Virus record (IMG/VR): IMGVR_UViG_2531839531_000013
Location: 1-36,622 of that record
Length of the DNA: 36,622 nt
Source of the DNA: a virus
Taxonomy: Duplodnaviria; Heunggongvirae; Uroviricota; Caudoviricetes
Direction: 5' to 3' (one strand)
Position 1 is the first letter of the stretch, and each line of letters begins with the position of its first letter. The notes under the pieces are model-generated. The model saw nothing but the letters and a program-made list of their open reading frames with translations, had not been told where the DNA came from and did not search any database. The position numbers were made by a program, and so were the translations under genes. Of this stretch, positions 1,997-36,622 are shown one piece after another.

Positions 1997-3097
1997 TCAT
2001 TCCATTTCGAGATCATCAACCTTCACTTCAAGCTCAAGACTGGTCGTAAAACCATTATCCGGGCTGACGGTATGTGTCAGAGTCGTAATGGTCCATTCCG
2101 CATCATCTATCGGCTGTTTAAAGCCACTGACTTTCACTGGCATTTCCGTGTAGAGATCTGCCCGCCCTTCCGCCAGTTGTAGCGAGAATGACGCAACGCC
2201 GCGTTGCAGGCGTTCCCACTGCATTTTCGCTGCCCGTTCAGCGTTGCTCCGGTTGGCATAAGTGCGATTAAGTACCAGCACGTTTTCATCCGTACCCACC
2301 AGGTAATCGCCCTGCTTCGCTTCCAGCTCTTTCTTCTGCTTCTTAGTCCTGCGCTTACGCTTCACCGTGGTGCTTTCTTTCTTCGCGGGTTCGCGGGTAT
2401 GCAACCAGCTGGCAATTATGCCCGTATAGGCTCCGCGATCTGCCAGGGTAAAGCGGTGACTGTCGCCGTCCTTACGTGTGATAGTGATCACCGGCAGTGG
2501 TTTACCGCTGGCACTTTTGCCCTGTCCCTGCCGGATGAATAACAGATTGCCATTTTTCACCGACGCAATAGCACCGTACTGGCGCGCCAGCCGCATCAGA
2601 AAACTACCGTCACTCTCATTAGTCTGGTCTATATGCTCCACGAGCTTATCCGACAGGTCTTTACCCAGTACCATCTTCAGCTTGTGCCGCGCGGCTATCT
2701 CCTTCACCACTTCCCCAATGGTGGTCTTGTGCCACGATTTTTCACGGCGGGTATTCAGCGTTTCCCGAAAATCAGCACTTCGCGCCCGGATAGTCAGGCG
2801 GTCCGGTGCGCCAGTGTGTTCAATCTCGTCCACCGTGAATGCCCCTTTCGGGAAAAGCGGCTGCCCCTTCCAGCCCAGCGCCAGCGTAATGACCGCACCA
2901 CGGCGCGGCAGCACGATTTTCCCGTCGGCATCGTCCAGCTCCAGATCAAGCTGGTCTGCTTCAAAGCCCCGATTGTCCGTCAGAGTCAGACTCATCAGGC
3001 GGTTATCCAGCACAGTGGTGATATCCCTGCCCTCAATACTGATGCTGAATGCCGGAGTTTTGTTGCTTTTGTTAAGCAGTTCAGAGCTGAAATTCAC
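1997..3097 (-). CDS. D: Tail protein gpD
   Basis: 366 aa. Sits in the P2 gpD position downstream of U and upstream of ogr. The start overlaps the U stop. Confidence 0.88.
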   Translation of the reverse strand: MNFSSELLNKSNKTPAFSISIEGRDITTVLDNRLMSLTLTDNRGFEADQLDLELDDADGKIVLPRRGAVITLALGWKGQPLFPKGAFTVDEIEHTGAPDRLTIRARSADFRETLNTRREKSWHKTTIGEVVKEIAARHKLKMVLGKDLSDKLVEHIDQTNESDGSFLMRLARQYGAIASVKNGNLLFIRQGQGKSASGKPLPVITITRKDGDSHRFTLADRGAYTGIIASWLHTREPAKKESTTVKRKRRTKKQKKELEAKQGDYLVGTDENVLVLNRTYANRSNAERAAKMQWERLQRGVASFSLQLAEGRADLYTEMPVKVSGFKQPIDDAEWTITTLTHTVSPDNGFTTSLELEVKVDDLEME

Positions 3098-3579
3098 GAC
3101 AGCAGCCCTCCCACCGTTTTACTGATATCGCTTAAGGTAGACGTTGCCGTTTCCTGCAGATTATTCAGTTGCGCACTGAGATCACCGAACATATCGGACA
3201 GGGATTCATCCACCCGTTTGAGCGACAGGGTGAACTCAATCCGGCGCGGCATACCGTCGCGGAAAAACTCCGTTTTAGTCTGATTCAGTCCCTCAATCAC
3301 ATACATGCCATAAATCGTGCCGCTGCCTTCAATCAGGGGCCATGCTTTCCCCTGTTCTGCCATCTGCTCCAGTGCCAGCAACGACAGCCTGCCACCTGTT
3401 ATCTCCGGCATAAGAACACCGGAAAGCGTCAGCATGTCGTTGTCCGGTCCCAGAAACTGCGTGGACGGACGTCGGTTTACCCGGCTGTTTGCCGCATGTC
3501 GCCAGCTGCGTTGATACTGCAGCTCCTGATACGGCACGGTGCGCAGCATAAACACGTACAATCCCAGCACCATCATCAT
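3094..3579 (-). CDS. U: Tail protein gpU
   Basis: 161 aa, translationally coupled between T and D as in P2. Confidence 0.88.
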   Translation of the reverse strand: MMMVLGLYVFMLRTVPYQELQYQRSWRHAANSRVNRRPSTQFLGPDNDMLTLSGVLMPEITGGRLSLLALEQMAEQGKAWPLIEGSGTIYGMYVIEGLNQTKTEFFRDGMPRRIEFTLSLKRVDESLSDMFGDLSAQLNNLQETATSTLSDISKTVGGLLS

Positions 3580-8976: not shown

Positions 8977-9543
8977 TCAGGGGGATTCATTGATCTTATT
9001 TGCCGGAAATTTTCTATAAATGGTAGAAACGCCTACATCAAAAATCAGTGCAATACGCTGTCTTGATTCTCCGGCCTCGAGTAAACGCCCAATCTGTGCC
9101 CACTGTTCGGTGGTCAACTTAGGACGGCGTCCACCTACTCTGCCTTTGGCACGAGCTGCAGCCAGCCCTGCCCTGGTACGTTCAACTATCAGTTCGCGTT
9201 CCATTTCAGCCAGGGCACCCATGACATGAAAAAAGAAACGGCCCATTGGGGTACTGGTATCAATACTGTCAGTCAGGCTTCTGAAATTCACACCACGCTG
9301 GCGCAACTCTTCTATCAGCGTAACAAGATGCCGCATACTGCGCCCCAACCTGTCCAGCTTCCAGACAACCAGCGTGTCTCCTGCCGATAGTGTCCTGAGT
9401 AGTTTTTTCAGCCCCGGTCTGTCGGACTTAGTGCCACTGATTTTGTCCTCAAAAATCTGCTCACATCCCGCGCAGTTCAGTGCATTACGTTGCAAATCGG
9501 TGTTCTGGTCATTTGTTGACACGCGTACATAGCCAATAAGCAT
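8977..9543 (-). CDS. Serine DNA invertase (Hin/Gin/Cin/Pin family)
   Basis: MLIGYVRVSTNDQNTDLQRNAL... contains the catalytic Ser motif, and there is a C-terminal HTH. The start is taken at the MLIGY Met (9543), which is preceded by GGGGA. Confidence 0.95.
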   Translation of the reverse strand: MLIGYVRVSTNDQNTDLQRNALNCAGCEQIFEDKISGTKSDRPGLKKLLRTLSAGDTLVVWKLDRLGRSMRHLVTLIEELRQRGVNFRSLTDSIDTSTPMGRFFFHVMGALAEMERELIVERTRAGLAAARAKGRVGGRRPKLTTEQWAQIGRLLEAGESRQRIALIFDVGVSTIYRKFPANKINESP

Positions 9544-9598
9544 GATCATCCCCCTGAATAAAAACCGGAGATGATGCCAGTTAGCTGTTACCTCTGCA

Positions 9599-9954: not shown

Positions 9955-10138
9955 TCCTGTTACTTTGACTGAAGTAATCCCCGGTCTTCATGACGTGACC
10001 GGGGCTGTTGAATTACCAGAAGATAACTGGTTTTTTACTGCATCTGAAATCCCTGAAGGAATGGAAATATCTGTTAACGAGAAGGGAGAACCCATTCTGA
10101 TTGAGATTAAACCGTCTCAGGAGGAACTGGCCAGATGA
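9941..10138 (+). CDS. Alternative tail-fibre assembly protein fragment (G', 65 codons, GTG start)
   Basis: GGAGGG lies 6 nt upstream of GTG 9941. The ORF starts 14 nt before the Hv' stop and converges on, and overlaps, the 3' end of G (10107-10138). It lacks the conserved C-terminal module present in G. Confidence 0.5.
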   Translation: MRLFNPVTLTEVIPGLHDVTGAVELPEDNWFFTASEIPEGMEISVNEKGEPILIEIKPSQEELAR

Positions 10139-10712
10139 CATCTGGCGCGGTGCTGGTATCTGTTGCCATCACCGCGTCAGTGTAATCCAGCACGGCGTTA
10201 AGTCGGGTGTTTTCTGCCTGCGTCAGCTTCCGCCCGGCCTGCAATTTCAGTTGAATCAGACTAATGGAAACCATTGCAGCATCAATCAGCGACTGCCGCT
10301 GTGTTTCTGCCATGTCTACTGCTGCTCTATGCTGTGCCTCGGTATCCGTCACCCATTTCTCACCATCCCATTTATCGTATGGCGTTAACGGGGCGATAGT
10401 GGTTGTCTTTTCAGGGTAATCACCCGGAGCTGTGATTTCTTTTGATTCTCCTGTTTCGGTGCTATAGACGATTTCACCGCGATGGTCTGGCACATATTCC
10501 CATGAGTTAAAATCTGCAGAACGGCAAATTGCATAACCAGCTTTATATGAGCCAGGAGCATCTAAACAGGAACATGCCGGGATACCGACACCCACAGCAA
10601 GATATTCGGTTGATGTGGAAATATATTCTCGTGTTTCACCATCATAATTATAAACAGTAATATCTCCCGCCTTTGTGGCGATGAGTTCCTTATTTAATAT
10701 AGCTTTATCCAT
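10107..10712 (-). CDS. G: Tail fibre assembly chaperone gpG
   Basis: 201 aa with an ATGA overlap on the H stop. The C-terminal ...LQAGRKLTQAENTRLNAVLDYTDAV...WPVPP motif is typical of Tfa/U-family chaperones. Confidence 0.85.
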   Translation of the reverse strand: MDKAILNKELIATKAGDITVYNYDGETREYISTSTEYLAVGVGIPACSCLDAPGSYKAGYAICRSADFNSWEYVPDHRGEIVYSTETGESKEITAPGDYPEKTTTIAPLTPYDKWDGEKWVTDTEAQHRAAVDMAETQRQSLIDAAMVSISLIQLKLQAGRKLTQAENTRLNAVLDYTDAVMATDTSTAPDVIWPVPPETV

Positions 10713-20712: not shown

Positions 20713-22479
20713 ATGAACACCACACTGACACCCGCAGATCTCGATCCCCGTCGGCAGGCCATGCTGCTGTACTTTCAGGGATACCGCGTAGCCCGCATTG
20801 CTGAAATGCTGGGCGAGAAAGTTGCAACCGTTCACAGCTGGAAGAAACGCGACAAGTGGGGTGACTATGGGCCGCTGGATCAGATGCAGCTCACCACCGC
20901 CGCACGTTACTGCCAGCTCATTATGAAGGAGCACAAAGAAGGGAAAGATTTCAAAGAAATTGACCTGCTGGCGCGCCAGTCGGAGCGCCACGCGCGGATC
21001 GGCAAGTTTAACAATGGCGGCAACGAAGCCGACTTAAACCCTAACGTCGCCAACCGCAACAAAGGCCCGCGCCGTCAGCCGGAAAAGAATGTTTTCACCG
21101 ATGAACAGATAGAGAAACTGGAAGAAATCTTCCATTCCTCCATGTTCAACTACCAGCGCCACTGGTGGGAAGCCGGAAAAACCAACCGCATCCGCAACCT
21201 GCTGAAGTCACGCCAGATCGGCGCGACCTTTTACTTTGCCCGTGAAGCCCTGATTGACGCCCTGCTTACCGGACGTAACCAGATTTTCCTTTCTGCCAGT
21301 AAGGCACAGGCTCACGTCTTTAAGCAGTACATCATCGACTTCGCCAAAGAAGTCGAGGTGGAGCTGAAAGGCGATCCGATGGTGCTTCCTAACGGGGCCA
21401 CGCTTTACTTCCTCGGCACCAATGCCCGCACGGCGCAGAGTTACCACGGCAACCTGTATCTGGATGAATATTTCTGGATACCGAAATTCCAGGAGTTGCG
21501 CAAAGTGGCTTCCGGTATGGCTATTCACAAGAAATGGCGACAAACCTATTTTTCCACGCCATCCAGCCTGACCCACAGTGCTTATCCGTTCTGGTCCGGT
21601 GCGCTGTTCAACCGTGGACGCAACAAAGCTGACAAGGTGGACATCGACCTGTCCCACAGCAATCTGGCCCCCGGCCTACTGTGCGCAGACGGGCAATACC
21701 GCCAGATAGTCACCGTGGAAGATGCGGTGCGCGGCGGCTGTAACCTGTTCGACCTCGACCAGCTGCGCATGGAGTACAGCCCGGACGAATACCAGAACCT
21801 GCTGATGTGCGAGTTCGTGGACGATCTCGCGTCCGTGTTCCCGCTCAGCGAACTGCAGGCGTGCATGGTGGACAGCTGGGAAGTCTGGACCGACTTTCAT
21901 GCACTGGCCCTGCGCCCGTTTGGCTGGCGCGAAGTGTGGATCGGTTATGACCCGGCAAAAGGTACGCAGAACGGCGACAGTGCCGGATGCGTGGTGGTGG
22001 CTCCGCCAGCCGTGCCGGGTGGTAAGTTCCGCATTCTTGAGCGTCACCAGTGGCGCGGGATGGACTTCCGCGCCCAGGCTGACGCCATCAAAAAACTGAC
22101 CGAACAGTATAACGTGACCTATATCGGTATCGACTCGACCGGCGTCGGTCACGGGGTTTACGAGAACGTGAAAGCGTTTTTTCCTGCCGTCAGGGAGTTT
22201 GTCTATAACCCCAACGTTAAAAACGCCCTGGTACTCAAGGCCTACGACATTATCAGCCACCGCCGTCTGGAGTTTGACGCCGGGCACACCGACATTGCGC
22301 AGTCATTTATGGCAATCCGTCGCGCTACCACTGCCAGTGGCAACCGCCCGACCTATGAAGCCAGCCGCAGCGAAGAAGCCAGCCATGCCGATCTGGCCTG
22401 GGCAACAATGCACGCACTGTTTAACGAACCGCTGCAGGGCGAGTCCGCCAATACCAGCAATATTGTGGAGATTTTTTGA
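20713..22479 (+). CDS. P: Terminase large (ATPase) subunit gpP
   Basis: 588 aa. LKSRQIGATFYFAREA Walker-type motif, as in P2 gpP. Confidence 0.95.
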   Translation: MNTTLTPADLDPRRQAMLLYFQGYRVARIAEMLGEKVATVHSWKKRDKWGDYGPLDQMQLTTAARYCQLIMKEHKEGKDFKEIDLLARQSERHARIGKFNNGGNEADLNPNVANRNKGPRRQPEKNVFTDEQIEKLEEIFHSSMFNYQRHWWEAGKTNRIRNLLKSRQIGATFYFAREALIDALLTGRNQIFLSASKAQAHVFKQYIIDFAKEVEVELKGDPMVLPNGATLYFLGTNARTAQSYHGNLYLDEYFWIPKFQELRKVASGMAIHKKWRQTYFSTPSSLTHSAYPFWSGALFNRGRNKADKVDIDLSHSNLAPGLLCADGQYRQIVTVEDAVRGGCNLFDLDQLRMEYSPDEYQNLLMCEFVDDLASVFPLSELQACMVDSWEVWTDFHALALRPFGWREVWIGYDPAKGTQNGDSAGCVVVAPPAVPGGKFRILERHQWRGMDFRAQADAIKKLTEQYNVTYIGIDSTGVGHGVYENVKAFFPAVREFVYNPNVKNALVLKAYDIISHRRLEFDAGHTDIAQSFMAIRRATTASGNRPTYEASRSEEASHADLAWATMHALFNEPLQGESANTSNIVEIF

Positions 22480-23513
22480 TGGGAAAGAGTAAGAAGAACC
22501 GCGCTGCGTCGACGAAACAGATCCAGCATAAAAGCCAGACTTCAGCCGAAGCATTCAGCTTCGGTGATCCCGTTCCTGTTCTGGACCGCCGCGAACTGCT
22601 GGACTATGTGGAATGCGTACAGATGGATCGTTGGTACGAGCCGCCTGTGAGTTTCGACGGACTGGCGCGAACCTTCCGCGCCGCCGTGCATCACAGCTCA
22701 CCGATTGCAGTGAAGTGCAACATTCTGACCAGCACCTACATCCCTCACCCGCTGCTCAGCCAGCAGGCTTTTTCGCGTTTTGTACAGGACTATCTGGTTT
22801 TTGGTAACGCCTACCTGGAGAAACGCACGAACCGCTTCGGTGAAGTTATCGCCCTTGAGCCTGCACTGGCAAAATACACCCGACGCGGGTTAGACCTGGA
22901 TACCTACTGGTTTGTGCAATACGGCATGACTACGCAGCCGTATCAGTTCACGAAAGGCAACATTTTTCATCTGATGGAACCGGACATCAACCAGGAGATC
23001 TACGGCCTGCCTGGTTATCTTTCTGCCATTCCGTCAGCTCTGCTCAACGAGTCCGCCACGCTGTTCCGCCGCAAGTATTACATTAACGGCAGTCATGCAG
23101 GCTTCATCATGTACATGACCGATGCAGCGCAGAACCAGGAGGATGTGAACAACCTCCGCAATGCGATGAAAAGCGCCAAAGGTCCTGGTAACTTCCGTAA
23201 CCTGTTTATGTACTCGCCTAACGGTAAAAAGGACGGGCTTCAGATTATCCCGTTGTCAGAAGTGGCGGCGAAGGATGAGTTCCTGAATATCAAGAACGTG
23301 AGCCGGGACGACATGATGGCGGCGCATCGTGTGCCGCCACAAATGATGGGGATAATGCCTAATAATGTCGGGGGGTTTGGGGATGTGGAGAAGGCCAGTC
23401 GCGTATTTGTACGTAATGAATTAACGCCCTTGCAAAAAAGGCTACAAGAGCTGAACGACTGGCTGGGCGAAGAAGTGATTAAATTTACGCCCTATATTCT
23501 TTCAGAAGAATAA
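22476..23513 (+). CDS. Q: Portal protein gpQ
   Basis: 345 aa, ATGA-coupled to P, at the P2 gpQ position next to cos. Confidence 0.93.
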   Translation: MMGKSKKNRAASTKQIQHKSQTSAEAFSFGDPVPVLDRRELLDYVECVQMDRWYEPPVSFDGLARTFRAAVHHSSPIAVKCNILTSTYIPHPLLSQQAFSRFVQDYLVFGNAYLEKRTNRFGEVIALEPALAKYTRRGLDLDTYWFVQYGMTTQPYQFTKGNIFHLMEPDINQEIYGLPGYLSAIPSALLNESATLFRRKYYINGSHAGFIMYMTDAAQNQEDVNNLRNAMKSAKGPGNFRNLFMYSPNGKKDGLQIIPLSEVAAKDEFLNIKNVSRDDMMAAHRVPPQMMGIMPNNVGGFGDVEKASRVFVRNELTPLQKRLQELNDWLGEEVIKFTPYILSEE

Positions 23514-23521
23514 TTCCGAAC

Positions 23522-24220
23522 TTATTTGTTTCTTCTTTGTTCACGCCTTGTCTTGGCTTCGATAAGGCGTTGAGGTTCAGTGTAAAGCCGTTCTAAAAAA
23601 AGATAGGTAAAATCTTCAAGATCCTCAGCAGCAGCTTTATCCAAAATACCTTCATGCGCTCCATCATTTCCGTCATCTTTAACGCATTCAGCTAGTTCCC
23701 TTAAAGCTTCAGGCAGTAGATGATTATCAAATAACCACTCCATTCTTAACCCTAGGCTTCTCCTTATTTTTTGCGCAGGCCCTTGCTCCCCATCAGGAAG
23801 AAGTCCTTTTGTGGCATAATCAAGGCAAAGCCTAAACATGGTTGCTGCTGCATTATAACAACCTATAGCCAAACATTTCGCCCCTTCCTCATATGCACTA
23901 TTGATATGCTCAGGTAAGAACTCTGGTGGCTCCTCTACTGCTAAGTCTGCCGGTGATATAGGCCTAACAACCTCTGCAACTTCCTTTAAGCCGAATATTC
24001 CACTTTCCCAATTATAGCCATCTAAAGTTTTATTTTTCGTTAAAGGTCTGCAAAGAAACATTGTCGTTTTATGACACTCTCGGCAAACACAATAGACCTC
24101 GTATTCGTATGTTTTACCCCCGCCCAATGCATTGTAAACCCTAGTGCAATTCAGCCCATTAACATCAAACGCTATTTTTTGTGATCCACATCGTGGACAG
24201 TCATCCACTAACATAACCAT
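23522..24220 (-). CDS. Zinc-ribbon + DUF4145-like domain protein (cargo, 232 aa)
   Basis: The N-terminus CPRCGS...x34...CVCRECHK has four Cys. The C-terminal LGLRMEWLFDNHLLPEALRELAECVKDDGNDGAHEG...AEDLEDFTYLFLERLY matches my memory of the DUF4145 (PF13643) signature. The gene is AT-rich and has a GGGAGGAG SD. Confidence 0.7.
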   Translation of the reverse strand: MVMLVDDCPRCGSQKIAFDVNGLNCTRVYNALGGGKTYEYEVYCVCRECHKTTMFLCRPLTKNKTLDGYNWESGIFGLKEVAEVVRPISPADLAVEEPPEFLPEHINSAYEEGAKCLAIGCYNAAATMFRLCLDYATKGLLPDGEQGPAQKIRRSLGLRMEWLFDNHLLPEALRELAECVKDDGNDGAHEGILDKAAAEDLEDFTYLFLERLYTEPQRLIEAKTRREQRRNK

Positions 24221-24288
24221 GTCAATTACTCCTCCCTATGAAAAAAATGAGTTGAAAAATTGAATATTCACGACTTAAAAAGCTAGCC

Positions 24289-24317
24289 TATTTAACACCA
24301 TAATTTCATTAATTCAA
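24289..24317 (-). promoter_or_regulatory. Putative sigma70 promoter of the ZnR-DUF4145 gene
   Basis: On the minus strand: TTGAAT (24317-24312), a 17-nt spacer, then TAAATA (24294-24289). It begins 14 bp from the cos core. Confidence 0.45.
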
Positions 24318-24330
24318 CCATGAGCGCGCG

Positions 24331-24349
24331 CTCGTATCCCCGCCACGCC
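24331..24349. other. Probable cos cohesive-end site
   Basis: The reverse complement GGCGTGGCGGGGATACGAG shares its first 13 nt with the 19-nt 186 cos end as I remember it (GGCGTGGCGGGGAAAGCAT; P2 GGCGAGGCGGGGAAAGCAC). It sits in a GC-rich patch at the expected position beyond Q. Confidence 0.55.
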
Positions 24350-24390
24350 TGCCCGCTTTGTGTAGTGGTTTTCATGCACCTGCATGACAT

Positions 24391-24418
24391 AAGCAAAAGC
24401 CCGCCAGCTCTGGCGGGC
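24391..24418 (-). terminator. Rho-independent terminator downstream of the HNH gene
   Basis: On the minus strand: GCCCGCCAG-ag-CTGGCGGGC followed by TTTTGCTT. Confidence 0.6.
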
Positions 24419-24531: not shown

Positions 24532-25251
24532 TTAGCCAAAGCAGAAACCAATATTGCAATTTGAAACTCCACAGTTGTGAAATTGATGTGGACCTACTCT
24601 TAGCTTGTGTTCGTCTCCTACAATCCGAGTCCCCTTAACCAACATATCTAATCTTTCCACAATCAATCTTTCAGGCGCATCAACTTTAATAATTAAACGA
24701 GGACCTTTCCTTTTTTCTATAATAGTTATTCTAGGACCGACAACCTGAACATCCCAATGCCTTGCACTACAAACCCACTCATTCTTAATTAATTCAAGAT
24801 TAACAATACCTTGACTATCGTAAAATTTACCCGAAATAAGAAAAGCATTATTTTCTTTTTCAATGGTTAACAATGGCTCATTTTGAAACATTATTGGTAC
24901 AGTACAGGATTCAAACGTCGCACCACCAAATATTATTGTTGGATGCCTATCAGAAAAGTCCAATATATCGGCCACATTCCCTTTTTGTAAGGCTGCAGGA
25001 GATTCCATTGCTTTAATTATTTTCTCTTTAGAGTAAAGACGTTTCGTTACTTTCGCATGGCACGTAGGACAAAGTAGTGCTATTGCATTTGGAGAGTGCT
25101 CCTTTGCATCAGCGTATGTGGGAATTACATGCTCATACTCAACAATGGGAGAAGCACAAACAACGCAACCGAAGCCACAGCGCTGCCTTACCTCCAGTTT
25201 TACAGGTTCAGGAATTGTTCTAGATAACCCATGCTTGTTAATAGTTGTCAT
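24532..25251 (-). CDS. HNH endonuclease domain protein with unknown C-terminal domain (cargo, 239 aa)
   Basis: CGFGCVVC...VEYEHVIP...HSPNAIALLCPTCHAK carries the HNH/zinc motifs. The C-terminal ~150 aa are beta-rich with no motif I recognise. The gene is AT-rich and occupies the P2 old/tin position. Confidence 0.8.
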   Translation of the reverse strand: MTTINKHGLSRTIPEPVKLEVRQRCGFGCVVCASPIVEYEHVIPTYADAKEHSPNAIALLCPTCHAKVTKRLYSKEKIIKAMESPAALQKGNVADILDFSDRHPTIIFGGATFESCTVPIMFQNEPLLTIEKENNAFLISGKFYDSQGIVNLELIKNEWVCSARHWDVQVVGPRITIIEKRKGPRLIIKVDAPERLIVERLDMLVKGTRIVGDEHKLRVGPHQFHNCGVSNCNIGFCFG

Positions 25252-25959: not shown

Positions 25960-28374
25960 TTAATACAGGTTTCGCCACTTATCATCTTCCTGCAAACGCT
26001 GGTTCCGATAGAAGATACGCAGGCCTGCTCCTGACGGAATACTGCCGCCGCGAAGGAGTAAATCGACCTCTTTCTCGCTGCCATCAAATCCTCTGGACTT
26101 CAGTTCATAGACGAGCTGCTGTCGCTGATGGTCTGTAATTCGCTGTTTGTAGTCTTTACGCCGTTTCGGTTTCACCAGGCGTAACCTTGCAGCCAGTTCC
26201 CGGCGCTCTTTTTTGCTCATACTGTGCAGGTAATCATGCAACTCCTTGTCATCCATGCGGGTAATGTCCGTCCTGGTATCCCCATCAGCTGATTTGTCTT
26301 TCCCTTGTTGGTTCAAATTTTCAGCAAGGGGACAGTTATTGCCACGAGTCCAAGGGGCGCAAGCGCCCTGGTCGGCTGCCGCCTCCTGAACGTCAACGGC
26401 TTTACGAACCATTTTCCACTTCACTGCATGAGTGCAGATCTTGCCCTCTGCAATGGGTGACCAGATGCCATAAATACGAATACCATGATCGCCATAGGCG
26501 GTCGGCTCTTCGTTAATTTCATAAGCAGTTCTGATGAGGTGATATTTACGGGGAACCAGTACACCTCCCTGCTTCATGATATAGGTGGCAAAACAACCAG
26601 CATCAGCAGCAGCCAGAATGGCATCAAGGCGCGGGTTATCCAGTACCGGCACACCTGCTTTTTTGTCACCCTGCTGCCTTGCCGCCTGACCAGCCAGCAA
26701 TCGCAGTTCACGGTAAGCCTGACGCCCCGGAATGCCAAAGAAGCGGAATTGCTGAACACGATGCAAAGACGCCCAGGCATTCACGTATTCAGCATTATCA
26801 CGCAGAGATTTACCCGTTTCCTTGCTGATCTCGCCAGCCAGACCACGCCCGTCAATGTTCTTGCTGATATATTTCGCGATGTAGCTTGTCGGCGTTCCTT
26901 TGCGCGGGTTAATCAACTCAGACTTAAAGCGTGGTCCCGTGTTATTCCCCAGCTCCTCGCGGTCTTCACGAATGGCAAACTTACGCAACAAAGCAGTAAT
27001 GGCGCGGCGATCTTTTTTGCGCATAAAACACAACAGGTGCCAGTGAACTGTACCGTCATGATGCGGCTCAGCCACCCGCACGCCATACCAGCGCAATCCG
27101 GCTTTGTGCATAGCCTTACGAAATGCAGCAAACATGCCGACCAGATAATCGCTGCTTTGTCTTACTGTCGCGTTGGTCCAGGTCGGGTTTGGCCTGCCGT
27201 TATTTAGCGTGGAATGGAAACGTGACGGACAGGTGATGGTGTAGAAAACGGCGCAGTCACCACGCATTTCCGCGATAAGCTCCAGACCTTTAACGCAGGC
27301 CATCATCTCATTGCGGCGATGCGCCGGGTTGCTGCTGCTGGCGTTTACCACATCCTCCATGTCCAGCATGTCGCCGTCTTCGTTCACCAGTTCATGAGAA
27401 CGGAAAAACTCCAGAGACTTACGGCGCTGCTCACGTTTATGCATCACGGCTTCATAGCTGACATAGGGAGATGCTTTTTTGCTGACCAGACAGACAGCAC
27501 GCAACTGCTCTTCCCGCCATTCGCAACGCATCTTCCATAATTTCCGATACCACCAGTCGGCGCACAGCATACGCGCCAGCGAACCCGGAATGAGTTCATA
27601 GGGCACAGGTTTGCGGCGGTTTCTTTTCCGGCGGAGTTGCTCAAACGCAGGCGGTATGACATCCAGTCGCAGGGTTTCTGCTGCCACCTTTTCCCATGTC
27701 TTGCGGATTTCTTCCGGCTTAACATCATCGGAGGCGTACAAATCACCACAAGCGGCATCAAGACACATGCTCATATGCGCAGCGACAAGGGTGGACAGGC
27801 GTTTCACCTGATCCTGACTCATTTCAGGCAGGATCAGCAGACCGTCCAGCCCTTCATGGCTTGCCATAAAACGAAAAGATGCAGATAGCTGGCTGTCGCG
27901 TACATGCTCCAGTCGTTCCAGGCATGGCTTAATCGTCTCACGCAAATAGCGGGAATAAGCCTTTGGCCTGCCCAGGTTGCTGAAGTATTTAATACGTTGC
28001 ATCAGCGGCTTGCTGATATGGGAAGGCTGGGCGTTGACATCCGCCAGAATGACCATATCCGGATTAAAACGCTGCTGCTCATGCGCCAGCTTTGCCCGGC
28101 TAATTAGCTTATCCTGCTCCATTTCGCGCTGGACAGGATCACGGGATTCATTAAAGAAATAACGCTCCCAGACCTGATCACTCAGTGCCTCGCGGCGCAG
28201 TTGTTCCTGCTCGTTATCGGCAGCGTACAGAGTGATCAGGTTTGAAAGCGCAGAAACCGGCGCAACTTCCGCCGGGTCCAGATAAGGGTTAATGGCCTTT
28301 TTCGGGCTGTTCCATGAGAATGCTGCGGCAGCCTCGTTAAAGCCGCAGCAGTTGTTCATATCGGCATGACTCAT
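25960..28374 (-). CDS. A: Replication initiation endonuclease gpA (HUH rolling-circle type)
   Basis: 804 aa with the HUH motif TVHWHLLCF and the Tyr motif [12 protein letters not shown]. Confidence 0.9.
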
Positions 28375-29228
28375 GCACGTACTCCGTACACGGCAGAACT
28401 GTCCACGCCACGCGAATAATCAAATCCCACCCAGCAGCGCGGCCCGGAAACAGCAATGATTTCTGTTGCTGATTTACCCTCGCCAGCTGCCACACCGATG
28501 CTGCGTTTTGCTTTGATGTAGTGGTGGGTGAAATTGCGATACAACGAACGGATCAGGGATGTGTCACTGTTAGAAACAATGACCGGATGTCCTTCTGATA
28601 ACCGATGTTCAAGAACGGATGCCAGGTGATACTGGTCATCTTCAGTGAAACCATCAGTGTGATAGCCGGAAAACGTACCGTCATACGGCGGATCGCAATA
28701 CACCACATCCCCCGCCTTCAACATCGCCAGCGTTTCATCAAAGCTGGCGCAGATAAACGTTGCTCGCTGGGCTTTTTCTGCAAATGCGCGAATTTCTTTT
28801 TCAGGGAAATACGGATTTTTATAATTACCGTAGGGAATGTTGAAATGCCCGCTCTTGTTATAGCGACATAAACCACGGTAACCGTGACGATTGAGATACA
28901 GGAAATATACCGCTTTCATGAAATCAGTAATTTCAGTTGAGTAATTAAACTCCTGCCTTATGTTGTAATAAGCCACCTCCCTGTTTGCTTCCTCAAATAA
29001 AGCTCTGGCGCGAGATATAAACGATTCACAATCAGCAGCAACCTTTTTATAGAGGTTGATTAAATCAGGATTAATATCCGCAACAAGATAGCTGGGGTAC
29101 TCCGTCTCCATCATCACAGCACAGGAACCCGCGAAAGGTTCAACCAGTCGCGGGCCAGCAGGAAGATGCTTTTTCAGTTCGGACATAATGGCGGTTTTAT
29201 TTCCCGCCCATTTCAGGATGGTGCTCAT
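28371..29228 (-). CDS. dam: DNA adenine methyltransferase (Dam family, orphan)
   Basis: [17 protein letters not shown] (SAM-binding) and DPPY motifs. The start is taken at MSTILKW (GGAGG SD), overlapping the upstream stop. Confidence 0.9.
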
Positions 29229-29452
29229 ACAGCACCTCCGTTGTAATGTTTGCCTTTCAGCTCTGCGATTTCCTGACAGGTAATGCAAAGCTGCACACCC
29301 GGAATGGCGCGGCGGCGTGCTGGCGGAATTGGCGCTTCACACTCAATGCAAAGCACGCGGGACACGCCCGGCGTTTTGGCACGGGCAGAACGGATATGGC
29401 GCTGGCGTTCTTCTTCAACGCGCTGCTGTACGAGATCCATTGCATCAGCCAT
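29225..29452 (-). CDS. TraR/DksA-family zinc-finger protein
   Basis: C-terminal CIECEAPIPPARRRAIPGVQLCITCQ is a four-Cys finger. Confidence 0.8.
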   Translation of the reverse strand: MADAMDLVQQRVEEERQRHIRSARAKTPGVSRVLCIECEAPIPPARRRAIPGVQLCITCQEIAELKGKHYNGGAV

Positions 29453-31806: not shown

Positions 31807-32823
31807 ATGACTGTCAGAAAACAGCCAAACGGCAAATGGTTGTGTGAGTGCTATCCCAATGGACGCAATGGCAAGCGCGTGCGTAAGCAATTTGCTACGA
31901 AAGGAGAAGCCATTGCTTTTGAAAGCTTCACAATGGAAGAAGTGAATAAAAAACCGTGGCTAGGTGAAAAGGATGATCGGCGACGCCTATCAGAATTAAT
32001 TGAGCTTTGGTATTCCCTGTATGGCCAGACACTCGCAGACCCCAAGCGCCTCATGGCGAAACTTAGAATTATCTGTAATGGTCTAGGCGACCCCATCGCC
32101 TCAGAACTGACAGCCGGTGACTTTACAAAATACCGCGAAGCACGGTTAAAAGGCGACGTTCGTAACGAAGACGGCACACTAATGTCGCCAGTAAAACCAC
32201 GCACGGTGAATCTTGAGCAACGTAACCTATCATCGGTTTTCGGCACATTGAAAAAACTAGGCCACTGGTCAGCACCAAATCCTCTCGCCGGGCTGCCAAC
32301 ATTTAAAATCGCTGAGGGGGAACTGGCGTTCCTGACCTCGGAAGAAATTAAACGTCTGCTAGATGCCTGCGCTGATTCTCAAAACCCCAGTCTGCTTTTG
32401 ATTGCAAAAATATGCCTGGCCACCGGCGCACGCTGGAGTGAAGCCGAAAACCTGCAGGGCCATCAGTTATCTAAATACCGCATCACTTATACCAAGACGA
32501 AGGGCAAGAAAAACCGCACCGTGCCGATATCTCAAGATCTGTATGACGAACTCCCCAAGAACAGAGGGAAGCTATTCACCCCGTGCAGAAAAGCCTTTGA
32601 ACGGGCAGTAAAGCGAGCTGGCATCGAGCTGCCAGAGGGCCAATGCACTCACGTGCTACGTCATACATTCGCCAGTCATTTTATGATGAATGGCGGAAAC
32701 ATACTGGTCCTACGCGATATTCTGGGCCATGCCGATATAAAAATGACGATGATTTACGCCCACTTTTCGCCGGATCATCTTGAAGATGCAGTTACTAAAA
32801 ACCCTTTATGCAACTTAAGATAG
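31807..32823 (+). CDS. int: Tyrosine integrase (P2/186 family)
   Basis: 338 aa with ATGARWSEA (Arg), HVLRHTFASH (HxxR) and LGHADIKMTMIYAH (His/Tyr). Confidence 0.9.
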   Translation: MTVRKQPNGKWLCECYPNGRNGKRVRKQFATKGEAIAFESFTMEEVNKKPWLGEKDDRRRLSELIELWYSLYGQTLADPKRLMAKLRIICNGLGDPIASELTAGDFTKYREARLKGDVRNEDGTLMSPVKPRTVNLEQRNLSSVFGTLKKLGHWSAPNPLAGLPTFKIAEGELAFLTSEEIKRLLDACADSQNPSLLLIAKICLATGARWSEAENLQGHQLSKYRITYTKTKGKKNRTVPISQDLYDELPKNRGKLFTPCRKAFERAVKRAGIELPEGQCTHVLRHTFASHFMMNGGNILVLRDILGHADIKMTMIYAHFSPDHLEDAVTKNPLCNLR

Positions 32824-33201: not shown

Positions 33202-34935
33202 CTACTCAAGAAGATATTCTAACTCATCTTTTATCGGGATAACTTGCTCATAAAGTCGGTGATATGACTTCCCAATTGCGCCTCTGAATTGTATTAACTT
33301 TGGTGGCTTGTTACCTATATTAATAATATGGTCTTGAGCTATACCTGGGTAGGGATCAATAAATACAATTTCAGATATACCTAACTGATAAGCTTTTTTC
33401 GCACACAGCTCACAGGGACTGGCAGTTGTATATAACCTCCCCCCCTGAACGCCAATGCCACCATATTTTGCAAGTTGTAAAAATGCGTTTTCCTCAGCAT
33501 GTAATGCACGTGTATGAACTTGATTACCTTTTTTATCTTTATCAAGATCATTATGTATATCTTTAAAACAATAAGATAAGTTCCTGCCTCTATAAATATC
33601 ACCAGTTTTATCTATCGCCCTAAAATTTAATAGTTTCTCATTAGCTTTAATTCTGAAAGAACTATTATTTCTCTCATAATGACTGTACACTTTTTCATCA
33701 AAGTCGTTCATTAGGCCATCTAGCGATCTCATAGAGCAAGGAATCTGACCGTTGGCGACATCATTCCAACCCACTGATTTTATTGAATTTTCACCATCAG
33801 TTACTACAGCTCCCACCTGTCTAGATATACAACCAGAGTTTAATTTTACCGTATACGCAACTTGCATAACCCTTTCCATTGCAGTAGGTGTTATCAGACC
33901 AGGATGCTTCATCAGTGCGATGTACCACGCTAATTGTGCTTTTAAAATATTGTCATTATCAAATTCATTTTTTGGGTTAAAAATGTGTATATCTGATAGT
34001 TCAATGCATTTAGTTACATTTGGATTAGTGAGATGTTTGTAAGAGTTATCACCTTTACCTGACTCTACAGAATCTATTTCCTCTATCTGCTTTTCAGAAA
34101 ACTTATGTAGTTTCCGCAAATAGTTTGTTCGATGTTCATCTGGGGCATTTATTGACATTAAATGAAATGCAGAATATCTATCCTTAAAAAATTTTGCTTC
34201 ATATGGATTTCTAATAGCATCTATGACAATTAATGCGTTATCTCTTTTGCTTTTTCTTATTAATTTAATAACCCTATTAATAGTTTCCGGCAAATGAAAA
34301 ACAGATTTAGGTATAAACTCTTTATCTTCAAAATCGACTTCAATACGCCCACGGCGTCTAATTGACTTACCTGCTAACTGATAGACTGAAACATATAAAT
34401 TTGAGTTTATCGCATTTAGTTCAGCTTTGAATTCCTTAGTAAATTTTCTAACTAACCTCAAAATTGATATAAATTTATTAATCGTTTTTTCATTAAGCTT
34501 CAATTCACTATTATGATCAAGCAAATTCTCAATTACATTTTTAAATCTTGTTAAAATGAGATTATCTGAAAATACACCAAAAGTTAATACATTATCTAAA
34601 TGCTCTTTACTGATAGATTTATTAGATGATAGAATAAACTCAGAAGCTTCTTCAACTGTTAACATCAAAAGATACGCTGAGATTAGGTCACTCACCTTAA
34701 TTGAGTAAAAATTTTCCCAGTGATTTTCTGCGAATTTTTTAACTATATTATAACGATGGACATCCAATCCCTTGTAAAAACCCTGTAATTTACTTACATC
34801 AGGGAAGACTGTTTTTTCGTTTTCAAGAATATTAGCTGTTGTTGTGCAACCAGAACCAGTTCGACCTGTCAAACCGACTAAAATAAACTGCCCATTTTCA
34901 AGGAAAAGCTCACTAACGAATTTTTTTTCTTTCAT
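33202..34935 (-). CDS. P-loop kinase-like + cytidine/dCMP deaminase fusion (dCTP-deaminase type anti-phage protein)
   Basis: N-terminal Walker A GLTGRTGSGCTT. C-terminal zinc-deaminase motifs RQVGAVV, HAEENA and PCELCAKK. The region is very AT-rich (for example, 34441-34500 has 11 G/C in 60 nt). ATG 34935 is preferred over GTG 34938. Confidence 0.85.
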   Translation of the reverse strand: MKEKKFVSELFLENGQFILVGLTGRTGSGCTTTANILENEKTVFPDVSKLQGFYKGLDVHRYNIVKKFAENHWENFYSIKVSDLISAYLLMLTVEEASEFILSSNKSISKEHLDNVLTFGVFSDNLILTRFKNVIENLLDHNSELKLNEKTINKFISILRLVRKFTKEFKAELNAINSNLYVSVYQLAGKSIRRRGRIEVDFEDKEFIPKSVFHLPETINRVIKLIRKSKRDNALIVIDAIRNPYEAKFFKDRYSAFHLMSINAPDEHRTNYLRKLHKFSEKQIEEIDSVESGKGDNSYKHLTNPNVTKCIELSDIHIFNPKNEFDNDNILKAQLAWYIALMKHPGLITPTAMERVMQVAYTVKLNSGCISRQVGAVVTDGENSIKSVGWNDVANGQIPCSMRSLDGLMNDFDEKVYSHYERNNSSFRIKANEKLLNFRAIDKTGDIYRGRNLSYCFKDIHNDLDKDKKGNQVHTRALHAEENAFLQLAKYGGIGVQGGRLYTTASPCELCAKKAYQLGISEIVFIDPYPGIAQDHIINIGNKPPKLIQFRGAIGKSYHRLYEQVIPIKDELEYLLE

Positions 34936-35017
34936 CACGTCCCACTTATGAATGTAAGAATATTCAACATATTAATTATAATTTATTAACTCATTTTGTT
35001 CTAGATACTTGATGTAA

Positions 35018-35380: not shown

Positions 35381-36622
35381 ATGGCAAGACAAACCAAACC
35401 TCTATCCGTTAAAGAAATAGAATCAGCCAAACCCAAGGAGGCGGACTACGTTCTCTATGATGGCGATGGCCTTGAGCTACTCATTAAATCCAGCGGGAGT
35501 AAAATCTGGCAGTTTCGCTACATTCGCCCTGTCACCAAGAAACGAGCAAAGAAGAGCATAGGCTCCTACCCGTCAGTTACCCTTGCCGATGCCAGAAACT
35601 ACCGTGCAGAGTCCCGCTCACTACTGGCTAAACAGATCGATCCGCAGGAACATCAGCAAGAACAATTGCGCAGTTCGCTGGAAGCCAAAACCAACACTTT
35701 CCAACTCGTAGCTGAACGTTGGTGGAATGTGAAGAAAGCCAGTGTGACAGAGGACTATGCGGAAGATATCTGGCGCTCTCTTGAAAGAGACGTCTTTCCT
35801 GCGATTGGCGACGTTAGCGTTACAGATATTAAAGCTCATACACTGGTTCAGGCCGTACAACCGGTTCAGGCCAGAGGAGCACTGGAAACTGTTCGTCGCC
35901 TGTGCCAACGTATTAATGAGGTCATGATCTATGCCCAGAACACAGGGCTGATTGATGCTGTTCCCAGCGTTAATATCGGTAAAGCCTTCGAGAAGCCTCA
36001 GAAAAAGAACATGCCCAGCATTCGACCGGATCAGCTACCTCAGTTAATGCAGACGATGCGAACAGCCAGCATTAGCCTTTCCACACGCTGCCTGTTCATG
36101 TGGCAACTTCTTACTATTACCCGCCCTGCCGAAGCGGCTGAAGCTCTCTGGGAAGAGGTAGACATAGAAGCGCGAGAGTGGAAGATTCCTGCAGCACGCA
36201 TGAAAATGAACCGCGACCATACTGTTCCATTGTCAGATGAAGCAATTGCGATACTAGAGATGATGAAGCCGTTAAGTGGAAATCGAGAATTTATCTTTCC
36301 CAGCCGCATCAAGCCAAACCAGCCGATGAACAGTCAGACCGTAAACGCATCGCTAAAACGCGCAGGTTTTGGTGGGGTGCTCGTTTCACACGGCCTGCGA
36401 TCTATCGCCAGTACAGCCCTTAATGAGCAGGGATTTCCACCTGATGTTATTGAGGCTGCACTTGCTCATGTGGATAAGAATGAGGTTCGTCGTGCGTATA
36501 ACCGTAGTGATTATCTTGAGCAGCGACGGCCTATGATGCAGTGGTGGGCTGATTTTGTGATGGCTGCAGATCACGGTAGTATGATTGAAGGAGGGATAAA
36601 GGCAATGCGGTTAGTTGGATGA
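35381..36622 (+). CDS. intA: P4-family tyrosine integrase (CP4-57 IntA-like)
   Basis: 413 aa. MARQTKPL...LYDGDGL.LLIKSSGSK.WQFRY N-terminus, with TITRPAEAA, HGLRSIAST and AHVDKNEVRRAYNRSDY catalytic motifs. Closely resembles K-12 IntA as I remember it. Confidence 0.93.
   Translation: MARQTKPLSVKEIESAKPKEADYVLYDGDGLELLIKSSGSKIWQFRYIRPVTKKRAKKSIGSYPSVTLADARNYRAESRSLLAKQIDPQEHQQEQLRSSLEAKTNTFQLVAERWWNVKKASVTEDYAEDIWRSLERDVFPAIGDVSVTDIKAHTLVQAVQPVQARGALETVRRLCQRINEVMIYAQNTGLIDAVPSVNIGKAFEKPQKKNMPSIRPDQLPQLMQTMRTASISLSTRCLFMWQLLTITRPAEAAEALWEEVDIEAREWKIPAARMKMNRDHTVPLSDEAIAILEMMKPLSGNREFIFPSRIKPNQPMNSQTVNASLKRAGFGGVLVSHGLRSIASTALNEQGFPPDVIEAALAHVDKNEVRRAYNRSDYLEQRRPMMQWWADFVMAADHGSMIEGGIKAMRLVG

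What the first reader, a model, noticed from the sequence alone, without database searches (positions are those of the whole stretch)
23522..24220. Zinc-ribbon + DUF4145-like protein inserted between portal gene Q and cos
In the P2 family, as I recall, only ~0.2 kb of non-coding DNA separates the 3' end of Q from cos. Here an AT-rich 699-bp gene fills that gap. Its stop is 8 bp from the Q stop (convergent), and its own TTGAAT-17-TAAATA promoter starts 14 bp from the cos core. The protein combines an N-terminal four-Cys ribbon (CPRC...CRECH) with a C-terminal helical domain matching my memory of DUF4145, a domain otherwise seen attached to restriction and defence proteins. It is a stand-alone gene with its own promoter in a prophage, so a lysogen-expressed superinfection-exclusion or defence function (or a sensor for one) is plausible. 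I do not recognise it as a named system.
Basis: partly seen in the sequence, partly recalled or inferred. Interest (0 to 1): 0.7.

Follow-up and report, generated by a model that had tools for sequence, protein, structure and literature searches.

The report
RAZR-like defence RNase beside phage cos
A Fels-2/P2-like prophage carries, in the known defence-gene slot next to its packaging site, a stand-alone zinc-ribbon plus HEPN gene that is a distant sister of the recently solved anti-phage RNase RAZR (PD-T7-4); the find is real and sensible but largely anticipated.

Summary
A 232-aa ORF lies at 23522-24220 (-), 8 bp from the stop of portal gene Q. It has four invariant zinc-ribbon Cys and a Pfam DUF4145 match above the curated cut-off.

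It is not unnamed. Zinc ribbon + DUF4145/HEPN is the architecture of PD-T7-4, renamed RAZR (Nature 2026). RAZR is an abortive-infection RNase activated by assembling around phage portal or Erf-like rings.

This protein belongs to a separate sister family:
- Profile-profile probability to RAZR is 97.8%, with 20-25% identity.
- It scores 26 bits on the PD-T7-4 model, against 236 bits for a true member.
- Lys replaces the catalytic Arg. Arg and Lys interchange across the wider family.

The gene is cargo, not backbone. Among 80 prophages with near-identical Q, the Q-cos interval runs from 0.19 to 3.5 kb with about 48 arrangements. Those include retron RTs, GmrSD, SieB, TIR, PIN and OLD-like genes. 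This gene fills the slot in 3 of 80.

The locus is the P2 gpA-gpQ hotspot described in 2022, and that paper's table lists this exact protein.

Best reading: a lysogen-expressed, single-gene, RAZR-like abortive-infection RNase. No activity, expression or trigger was tested here. I rate it a new variant of a known kind, of moderate interest.

The parts
23514..24323 (-). Cargo module: everything between the Q stop and the point 7 nt beyond the cos 19-mer where related prophages stop being alike.
   Evidence: In 41 related loci the sequence is conserved through GGCGTGGCGGGGATACGAG+CGCGCGC and then diverges completely. On the other side, cargo ORFs end 12-80 nt after Q in most arrangements. GC is 0.42 against about 0.55 in the backbone.
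23522..24220 (-). CDS of 232 aa: a RAZR-like zinc-ribbon + DUF4145/HEPN protein (identical to WP_000245245.1 / Cartapus CARTA_1).
   Evidence: ORF. Pfam DUF4145. PADLOC PD-T7-4 E 1.2e-6. PHROG 1305 E 9.5e-53. 100% identical to the Cartapus protein. AF2 model with mean pLDDT 89.2.
24044..24220 (-). N-terminal zinc-ribbon domain (aa 1-59; C8, C11, C46, C49), the presumed sensor.
   Evidence: The four Cys are invariant in 116 sequences. The model shows four beta strands. Mean pairwise identity is 0.43 here against 0.64 in the HEPN part.
23927..24043 (-). Linker (aa 60-98), the least conserved segment. It ends in the conserved SPADL...PPE.LP motif.
   Evidence: Mean pairwise identity 0.24; alignment A1.
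23525..23926 (-). DUF4145/HEPN-like helical domain plus a long basic C-terminal helix (aa 99-232).
   Evidence: Pfam match aa 114-203. hhalign to the RAZR family covers aa 38-222. Helices 104-118, 122-138, 150-165 and 195-231 in the model. Best PDB fold match is the HEPN protein 2q00_A, probability 0.92 but E 0.38.
23654..23680 (-). Predicted active-site motif K181-DDGNDGA-H189. It aligns with R146...H154 of RAZR.
   Evidence: BLASTP and hhalign alignments. H189 is invariant and K181 is present in 115/116. Arg or Lys occurs at this position across the wider family. pLDDT is lower here (block mean 61).
24229..24236 (-). Shine-Dalgarno GGGAGGAG, 8 nt upstream of the ATG.
   Evidence: Read from the sequence.
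24289..24317 (-). Candidate own promoter TTGAAT-17-TAAATA with TGn before the -10. It belongs to the cargo, not to the backbone.
   Evidence: Read from the sequence. It lies inside the cargo-specific stretch. The consensus scan did not call it, so it is unproven.
24331..24349 (-). cos 19-nt cohesive-end sequence GGCGTGGCGGGGATACGAG (flanking landmark, not part of the cargo).
   Evidence: Conserved in all related loci. It falls inside the cos feature annotated in phage Cartapus, equivalent to window 24323-24381.
24399..24418 (-). Terminator-like hairpin (8 bp stem, 7 GC pairs, then a T-run) between the upstream HNH-like gene and cos. It would insulate the cargo from upstream transcription.
   Evidence: Only 2 terminator-like sites were found against 1.6 expected, so this is weak on its own.
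22476..23513 (+). Portal gene Q (flanking landmark), convergent with the cargo and with no terminator between them.
   Evidence: Pfam Phage_portal E 9.7e-19; coordinates; no terminator-like site between the stops.

Best explanation
The gene is an accessory anti-phage module carried in the cos-adjacent hotspot of a Fels-2/P2-like prophage integrated beside ssrA.

Proposed mechanism, by analogy with RAZR (PD-T7-4):
1. The gene is transcribed in the lysogen from a promoter it brings with it.
2. It makes a single 232-aa protein with an N-terminal Cys4 zinc ribbon (sensor) and a C-terminal DUF4145/HEPN domain (effector).
3. The protein is inert on its own.
4. The variable zinc-ribbon domain binds a protein of an infecting phage. 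In RAZR this is a large ring, either a portal or an Erf-like recombinase.
5. Binding orders the HEPN domains into active dimers or oligomers.
6. The K181/H189 site then cuts RNA non-specifically, stopping translation and aborting the infection.

Shown here: domain architecture, homology to RAZR, conservation of the metal ligands and of the K/H motif, cargo status, the defence character of the slot, and the absence of a partner gene.

Inferred only: expression in the lysogen, RNase activity, abortive outcome, and the identity and ring shape of the trigger.
For: Architecture and homology:
- Pfam DUF4145 is above its cut-off, and four Cys are invariant.
- The PADLOC PD-T7-4 model is the only hit, at E 1.2e-6.
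- PD-T7-4 was annotated 'Zn finger-HEPN'. It was then renamed RAZR and shown to be a ring-activated RNase needing R146 and H154.
- A bona fide RAZR-family alignment (A3) hits PDB 9Y9C at 260 bits. It aligns to this protein's family at hhalign probability 97.8%, E 9.7e-13, over 152 columns.
- BLASTP against E. coli RAZR gives 25% identity over 136 aa, with K181 on R146 and H189 on H154.
- The wider family carries Arg or Lys at that position, as expected if the positive charge matters.
- The zinc-ribbon domain is more variable than the HEPN domain (0.43 against 0.64), as reported for RAZR.

Cargo status:
- The gene fills the slot in 3 of 80 near-identical backbones.
- About 48 alternative arrangements exist, carrying RT-Toprim retrons, PIN, DprA, GmrSD, SieB, TIR, KAP, AIPR, Cap4, Schlafen and OLD-like TOPRIM.
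- GC is low.
- The locus is the published P2 hotspot and lists this protein.

Stand-alone gene:
- No conserved neighbour appears in 80 genomic loci.
Against: - There is no experimental evidence for this protein or its family.
- It is not a close RAZR: 26 bits on the PD-T7-4 model against 236 for a true member, and no PDB hit by sequence.
- The Foldseek PDB search gave only weak HEPN matches (2q00_A, E 0.38) and did not list 9Y9C among the 50 matches shown.
- The catalytic Arg, whose alanine mutant abolishes RAZR defence, is Lys here.
- The active-site loop is the least confident part of the model.
- The first zinc knuckle was not included in the profile alignment, so sensor equivalence rests on architecture.
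- In RAZR the linker is reported as mostly conserved; here it is the least conserved part.
- The promoter is weak by consensus and not statistically supported.
- A portal-sensing protein encoded by a phage that makes its own portal ring would need a way to avoid self-activation.
Confidence: 0.6

Rival explanations
1. It is a HEPN-type abortive-infection RNase, but its sensing logic differs from RAZR. The zinc-ribbon domain would recognise a non-ring phage protein or a nucleic acid, and activation would not need a megadalton ring assembly.
For: - The N-terminal halves of the two families do not align beyond the second zinc knuckle.
- The linker, needed for RAZR activation, is unconserved here.
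- Four extra conserved Cys in the HEPN domain (C116, C121, C132, C179) have no counterpart in RAZR.
- The C-terminal helices differ between the families.
Against: - Overall architecture, length and motif spacing are the same.
- The variability pattern fits a protein-sensing zinc-ribbon domain.
Confidence: 0.22
2. It is a phage counter-defence factor. A RAZR-like protein with an altered active site would coat the phage's own portal, or compete for it, shielding it from host RAZR-type sensors.
For: - It is encoded back to back with the portal gene.
- Arg is replaced by Lys at the catalytic position in all close relatives.
- RAZR family members bind portals.
Against: - K181, H189 and the GND motif are under strict conservation, and Arg/Lys interchange within the family, which argues for a working site.
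- 75 of 80 genomic copies lie outside P2-like prophages, next to unrelated genes.
- Adjacency to Q is explained by the hotspot: dozens of unrelated defence genes sit in the same place.
- The gene points away from the late operon and has lysogen-type signals.
Confidence: 0.04
3. It is a zinc-ribbon DNA-binding regulator or a cos/packaging accessory protein, as the PHROG label 'DNA binding protein' suggests.
For: - PHROG 1305 is annotated as a DNA binding protein, as is the relative in Shigella phage POCJ13.
- The gene lies next to cos.
Against: - It is absent from 77 of 80 prophages with the same packaging genes and the same cos, so packaging does not need it.
- The conserved part is the HEPN domain with its K/R-x7-H motif, not the zinc ribbon.
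- The PHROG label is an untested annotation.
Confidence: 0.04
4. It is a selfish or addiction-type toxin gene that rides in the hotspot and gives no protection against phages.
For: - HEPN RNases are common toxins.
- The gene is solitary and scattered across phyla at 45-50% identity, which suggests horizontal spread.
Against: - No adjacent antitoxin-like partner is conserved.
- RAZR itself is non-toxic without a trigger.
- The slot is otherwise filled with bona fide defence systems.
Confidence: 0.06

Closest known systems
RAZR (ring-activated zinc-finger RNase), formerly PD-T7-4; E. coli UMB1727, PDB 9Y9C/9Y6U (Zhang et al., Nature 2026, PMC13017515; Vassallo et al. 2022, PMC9519451)
   Same: - A single-gene system of about 220-230 aa.
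- An N-terminal Cys4 zinc ribbon (CxxC, about 30 residues, CxxC), then a linker, then a C-terminal DUF4145/HEPN domain.
- A basic residue, seven residues, then His, in the motif [RK]..GN...H at the same alignment position.
- A conserved E-[AG] and R-L helix pair.
- The sensor domain is more variable than the effector domain.
- Homology is supported by hhalign probability 97.8% and the PADLOC hit.
   Different: - Only 20-25% identity, and 26 bits on the family model against 236 bits for a true member.
- Lys instead of the catalytic Arg in this protein and all relatives of at least 48% identity.
- The motif is DGNDGAHEG rather than VGNNAVHPG.
- Four extra conserved Cys in the HEPN domain.
- A different, basic C-terminal helix.
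- The linker is not conserved.
[quoted passage not shown]
- Trigger and activity are unknown.
P2-like phage cos-adjacent (gpA-gpQ) defence hotspot: old/tin in P2 (Rousset et al. 2022, PMC9122126; Vassallo et al. 2022; PMC13586616, NAR 2026)
   Same: - Located between replication gene A and portal gene Q, directly beside cos.
- Extreme presence/absence polymorphism.
- Alternative cargo consists of defence systems.
- The exact protein WP_000245245 appears in Rousset's hotspot table labelled DUF4145.
   Different: - The published description treats A-Q as one locus.
- Here cos splits it into two independently assorting slots. The same Q-side gene is paired with different A-side cargo in the window and in LF82.
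- I found no record that a DUF4145 gene from this hotspot was tested.
DUF4145 family of the HEPN superfamily (Anantharaman et al. 2013, PMC3710099)
   Same: - The Pfam match is above its cut-off.
- That paper already lists 'Zinc Ribbon' among the DUF4145 fusions, places the family in conflict systems, and notes the Rx4-6H motif is conserved in only about 80% of members.
   Different: That work is a computational survey. It does not define this sub-family or its phage location.
Other zinc-ribbon + DUF4145 proteins in temperate phages: Stx-phage POCJ13 gp20 / PhiR5_2, Burkholderia phi644-2 gp55, Gordonia Meyran gp1
   Same: - Full-length relatives at 25-32% identity with Arg-x7-His.
- They lie in moron positions: next to HigBA and Ren in Stx phages, and as the first gene beside cos, terminase and portal in Meyran.
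   Different: - They are separate clades, scoring 15-21 bits on the PD-T7-4 model.
- None has been characterised.

Membership tests
RAZR / PD-T7-4 | N-terminal Cys4 zinc-ribbon domain | tested here: met
   C8, C11, C46 and C49 are invariant in 116 homologues. A beta-rich N-terminal domain is modelled at pLDDT 85-96. Only the second knuckle aligned in hhalign.
RAZR / PD-T7-4 | C-terminal DUF4145 (divergent HEPN) domain | tested here: met
   Pfam PF13643 at 30.3 bits, above the 23.1-bit cut-off. hhalign to the RAZR family has probability 97.8%.
RAZR / PD-T7-4 | Catalytic Arg (R146) and His (H154), both required for defence | tested here: not met
   The His is present and invariant (H189). The Arg position is Lys (K181) in 115/116 close homologues. 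More distant members of the same family have Arg in 69 and Lys in 44 of the representatives, so the change is conservative. The defining Arg is nevertheless absent.
RAZR / PD-T7-4 | Scores as a member on the family's sequence model | tested here: not met
   PADLOC PD-T7-4 gives 26.1 bits, against 235.9 bits for the Streptococcus phage Javan263 member. My RAZR profile gives at most 44 bits on this family, while within-family scores are 200-370 bits. There is no hit to 9Y9C by sequence. PADLOC shows no curated cut-off.
RAZR / PD-T7-4 | Single-gene system with no obligate partner | tested here: met
   No neighbour family is shared by more than 6 of 80 loci, and those 6 lie at varying distance and orientation. 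Neighbour Pfam content is heterogeneous. The adjacent HNH-like gene is absent from other carriers.
RAZR / PD-T7-4 | Zinc-ribbon domain is the most variable region (specificity determinant) | tested here: inconclusive
   The zinc-ribbon domain (0.43) is more variable than the HEPN domain (0.64), but the linker (0.24) is the most variable. In RAZR the linker is described as mostly conserved.
RAZR / PD-T7-4 | Activated by assembling as a 24-mer around phage ring proteins; non-specific ssRNA cleavage; abortive infection | not testable with these tools
   This needs phage challenge, escape mutants, co-expression toxicity, an RNase assay and cryo-EM.
P2-like cos-adjacent defence hotspot cargo | Lies between gpA and gpQ next to cos | tested here: met
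   A is at 25960-28374 (-), cos at 24331-24349, and Q at 22476-23513 (+).
P2-like cos-adjacent defence hotspot cargo | Variable content on a conserved backbone | tested here: met
   Among loci with Q at least 93% identical, the Q-cos distance is 191-3532 bp, with about 48 arrangements in 75 loci and 54 protein clusters. The boundary is sharp, 7 nt past the cos 19-mer.
P2-like cos-adjacent defence hotspot cargo | Alternative occupants are defence systems | tested here: met
   RT-Toprim retrons, PIN_12, DprA, GmrSD, SieB, TIR, KAP NTPase, AAA_13, AIPR, Cap4 nuclease, Schlafen and OLD-like TOPRIM.
HEPN superfamily | All-alpha bundle with an Rx4-6H-type motif | tested here: inconclusive

The most novel reading that the evidence does not exclude
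A prophage-borne RAZR-type sensor sits tail to tail with its own portal gene, so it must tell foreign portal or recombinase rings from the ring its own phage builds.

Two features could solve this:
- The rapidly diverging zinc-ribbon domain could be tuned away from gpQ.
- The orientation rule of the slot could matter. 70 of the 71 cargo ORFs called are convergent with Q, and no terminator lies between the stops. The strong late P-Q transcript would therefore run antisense through the defence gene and silence it just as the phage's own portal is made.

If true, the Q-side slot would be a self-insulating parking place for abortive-infection genes. The Arg/Lys HEPN family would extend ring-templated immunity to a second, widespread protein family.
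Probability: 0.12. Interest if true: 0.7.

Novelty: new variant of a known kind. Interest (0 to 1): 0.42.

Why it matters
RAZR is so far a single characterised family showing that a bacterial immune RNase can be switched on by the geometry of a phage ring.

- A sister family would test whether that principle generalises. It has the same two-domain plan, a Lys/Arg-x7-His site and about 230 representatives at 50% identity across many phyla.
- Its presence in an inducible P2-like prophage, right beside that phage's own portal gene, gives a natural system for asking how such a sensor avoids self-activation.
- The survey shows that the published P2 'gpA-gpQ' hotspot is really two slots separated by cos. 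They assort independently. The Q-side slot has a razor-sharp boundary and a fixed gene orientation, which helps in mining further defence genes.

None of this overturns current views. It extends them.

Tried and rejected
Searches that gave nothing useful:
- Sequence search of the PDB with the protein and with its family profile gave no relevant hit. RAZR (9Y9C) was reached only through a RAZR-family profile seeded from Streptococcus phage Javan263.
- Foldseek against the PDB gave only weak HEPN matches, and 9Y9C was not among the 50 matches shown. I cannot tell whether that entry is in the fold library.
- The BFVD fold search gave two unnamed full-length viral matches and nothing informative.
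- NCBIfam had no model for the protein.
- Rfam and repeat scans of the region found nothing.
- The promoter and terminator scan did not exceed the shuffled expectation.

Ideas rejected:
- A two-gene system with the HNH-like gene 24532-25251. Carriers of the identical DUF4145 gene (L082, L084, LF82) have other A-side cargo, and L158 has the HNH-like gene with different Q-side cargo.
- A conserved partner gene elsewhere. None was found.
- A backbone or packaging gene.
- 'Lys for Arg means an inactive enzyme'. This is weakened because Arg and Lys alternate within the family.

Left unresolved:
- I could not map the lysogen-expressed Cartapus morons LF82_783 and LF82_789 (Misson et al. 2023) to this gene.

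Full report
**What is there**

The window is a Fels-2/P2-like prophage lying next to the tmRNA gene ssrA (tmRNA at 40-402).

- Terminase gene P (20713-22479, +) and portal gene Q (22476-23513, +) are followed by a 232-aa ORF on the opposite strand (23522-24220). Its stop codon is 8 bp from the Q stop.
- The ORF has a strong Shine-Dalgarno (GGGAGGAG, 8 nt from the ATG) and 42% GC, against about 55% in the structural genes.
- The cos 19-mer GGCGTGGCGGGGATACGAG lies at 24331-24349. This falls inside the cos feature annotated in phage Cartapus, whose first 982 bases match this region at 99.7%.
It is weak by consensus, and the scan did not call it.
- A GC-rich hairpin with a T-run at 24418-24399 (-) lies between the upstream HNH-like gene and cos. 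It is compatible with the ORF being transcribed on its own.

**Domains**

- Pfam DUF4145 matches aa 114-203 above the curated cut-off.
- In an alignment of 116 homologues, C8, C11, C46 and C49 are invariant.
- So are H189 and the GND of a motif C-V-K-D-D-G-N-D-G-A-H. K181 is present in 115 of 116.
- AlphaFold2 gives a confident model (mean pLDDT 89.2). It has a four-stranded N-terminal domain, a linker, and a helical C-terminal domain ending in a 37-residue helix.

**The named relative**

The only PADLOC hit is PD-T7-4 (E 1.2e-6).

- PD-T7-4 was found in a functional selection and annotated 'Zn finger-HEPN'.
- It was renamed RAZR in a 2026 Nature paper.
- RAZR has an N-terminal Cys4 zinc ribbon and a C-terminal DUF4145 domain that is a divergent HEPN RNase.
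- R146 and H154 are needed for defence.
- RAZR is harmless alone and is activated by the portal proteins of T7, T3 and SECphi18, or by the Erf-like Gp77 ring of SECphi27.
- It assembles as a 24-mer around those rings, cleaves ssRNA non-specifically and aborts the infection.
- Its zinc-ribbon domain sets the specificity and is its most variable part.

**How close is it to RAZR?**

- Sequence searches of the PDB with the protein or its family profile found nothing.
- I therefore looked for a true RAZR member. Among weak tblastn hits in phages, the Streptococcus phage Javan263 protein scores 236 bits on the PD-T7-4 model.
- Its homologues give an alignment, A3, that hits RAZR chain 9Y9C_OA at 260 bits.
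- Profile against profile, my family and the RAZR family align with probability 97.8% (E 9.7e-13). The alignment runs over 152 columns, from the second zinc knuckle to the end of the HEPN domain, at 20% identity.
- BLASTP against the E. coli RAZR sequence gives 25% identity over 136 residues. It places K181 on R146 and H189 on H154.
- Cross-family profile scores are 25-45 bits, while within-family scores are 200-370 bits.

The protein is therefore homologous to RAZR and built the same way, but it belongs to a distinct sister family.

Differences from RAZR:
- Lys sits at the catalytic Arg position.
- Four additional conserved Cys lie in the helical domain (C116, C121, C132, C179).
- The C-terminal helix is different.
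- The linker is unconserved.

An exhaustive profile search finds 230 representatives at E ≤ 1e-30. Among the best 150 listed, of which 146 were new to the session, the position eight residues before the His is Arg in 69, Lys in 44 and another residue in about 13. The Lys is thus a conservative alternative within the family rather than a sign of an inactive enzyme.

**Cargo or backbone?**

I fetched 80 viral contigs whose Q is 93-99% identical to the window's and measured the distance from the Q stop to the cos core.

- The distance runs from 191 to 3532 bp. There are about 48 arrangements in 75 measurable loci, and 54 protein clusters.
- Only two loci are empty (about 0.2 kb, the P2-type state).
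- The gene studied here fills the slot in three loci.
- Of the 71 cargo ORFs called, 70 are convergent with Q.
- The conserved backbone ends 7 nt beyond the cos 19-mer. Past that point every cargo brings its own upstream sequence.
- Other occupants carry retron-type RT-Toprim, PIN_12, DprA, GmrSD, SieB, TIR, KAP NTPase, AAA_13, AIPR, Cap4 nuclease, Schlafen and OLD-like TOPRIM domains.
- Of the 494 phage records with a Q homologue, only the two records of phage Cartapus were among those matching this protein.
- 43 of 5426 complete E. coli genomes carry the module, LF82 among them.

**Already in the literature**

- The region between gpA and gpQ next to cos was described as a P2 defence hotspot in 2022, with 1,650 arrangements. 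Later papers confirmed it.
- The supplementary table of that paper lists DUF4145-containing arrangements. One includes WP_000245245.
- WP_000245245 is the LF82 copy of this gene.
- I found no sign that it was tested.

**Partner genes**

- The HNH-like gene on the other side of cos (24532-25251; Pfam HNH, PHROG 6544) is not a partner.
- Contigs with the identical DUF4145 gene lack it, and LF82 has different genes there.
- Another contig has the HNH-like gene with unrelated Q-side cargo.
- Across 80 genomic loci of the family, spanning many phyla at 43-84% identity, five sit against a P2-like Q (Q identity 66-90%). The rest are scattered with no recurring neighbour.

**Mechanism**

Putting this together, the most likely function is a lysogen-expressed, single-protein abortive-infection system of the RAZR type.

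- The zinc ribbon would act as sensor of a protein from the infecting phage.
- The HEPN domain would act as an RNase, using K181 and H189.
- Established here: the architecture, the homology, the conservation and the cargo context.
- Inferred from RAZR: expression, RNase activity, the abortive outcome and the ring-shaped trigger.
- The N-terminal halves of the two families align poorly. I give substantial weight (0.22) to the same effector working with a different trigger logic.
- An anti-defence decoy, a DNA-binding or packaging role, and a pure addiction toxin are each unlikely, for the reasons listed under rivals.

**An untested idea**

RAZR-type proteins sense portal rings, and this one is encoded by a phage that builds its own.

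- The fixed convergent orientation, and the lack of a terminator between Q and the cargo, mean the late P-Q transcript should read antisense through the defence gene during the phage's own lytic growth.
- That could help avoid self-activation.

**Verdict**

The gene is a new variant, a sister family, of a known defence protein, sitting in a known hotspot. Interest is moderate.

Noticed in passing
window 23514-24349; loci L082-L161: cos splits the published P2 'gpA-gpQ' hotspot into two slots that assort independently. On the Q side the backbone/cargo boundary is razor sharp: identity ends 7 nt past the cos 19-mer. 70 of the 71 cargo ORFs called point towards Q.
   Followed up: partly
window 23522-24220, aa C116, C121, C132, C179: Four further Cys in the helical (HEPN) domain are conserved in at least 115/116 homologues and have no counterpart in the RAZR family. 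A second metal site or a redox switch is possible. I could not inspect the model coordinates.
   Followed up: no
window 24532-25251 (-): A 239-aa gene on the A side of cos has an N-terminal HNH motif (Pfam E 2.4e-5) and an uncharacterised C-terminal two-thirds. It matches PHROG 6544 at E 2.5e-111 and has no PADLOC hit. It is AT-rich (37% GC) and is a separate cargo module of unknown function.
   Followed up: partly
window 33202-34938 (-): A 578-aa gene at 30-34% GC lies between the prophage integrase (31807-32823) and a second integrase (35381 onward). It matches the PADLOC dCTP-deaminase defence model at E 2.9e-145.
   Followed up: partly
window 511-1284 (-): A short (257 aa) reverse transcriptase lies between ssrA and the tail gene D end of the prophage. 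Pfam RVT_1 gives E 1.8e-21; the best PADLOC hit is retron-type RT_VI at E 7.8e-18. Rfam found no msr/msd RNA.
   Followed up: no
window 40-402 and 35381-36622: tmRNA gene ssrA sits at one end of the window, and a second tyrosine integrase with an Arm-binding domain at the other. This suggests two elements in tandem at or near the ssrA site.
   Followed up: no
L166 (Gordonia phage Meyran) 94-783: A distant zinc-ribbon + DUF4145 relative (27% identity) is likewise the first gene at the genome end, next to cos, the terminase genes and the portal gene.
   Followed up: no
L163, L164 (Stx-type phages PhiR5_2, POCJ13) 3040-3714: Another zinc-ribbon + DUF4145 clade, with Arg-x7-His, sits between a HigBA-like toxin-antitoxin pair and a Ren-like exclusion gene. 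It is annotated only as 'DNA binding protein'.
   Followed up: no
window 8977-9549 (-) and 28371-29288 (-): The prophage carries a Hin/Gin-type DNA invertase next to the tail-fibre genes, and a Dam-like orphan N6-adenine methyltransferase downstream of gene A. Both are ordinary for this phage group.
   Followed up: no
L010 (uncultured gammaproteobacterium) 10001-10699: A family member only 52% identical sits in the same place against a P2-like Q that is 66% identical. The association with the Q-side slot is therefore either old or recurrent.
   Followed up: no
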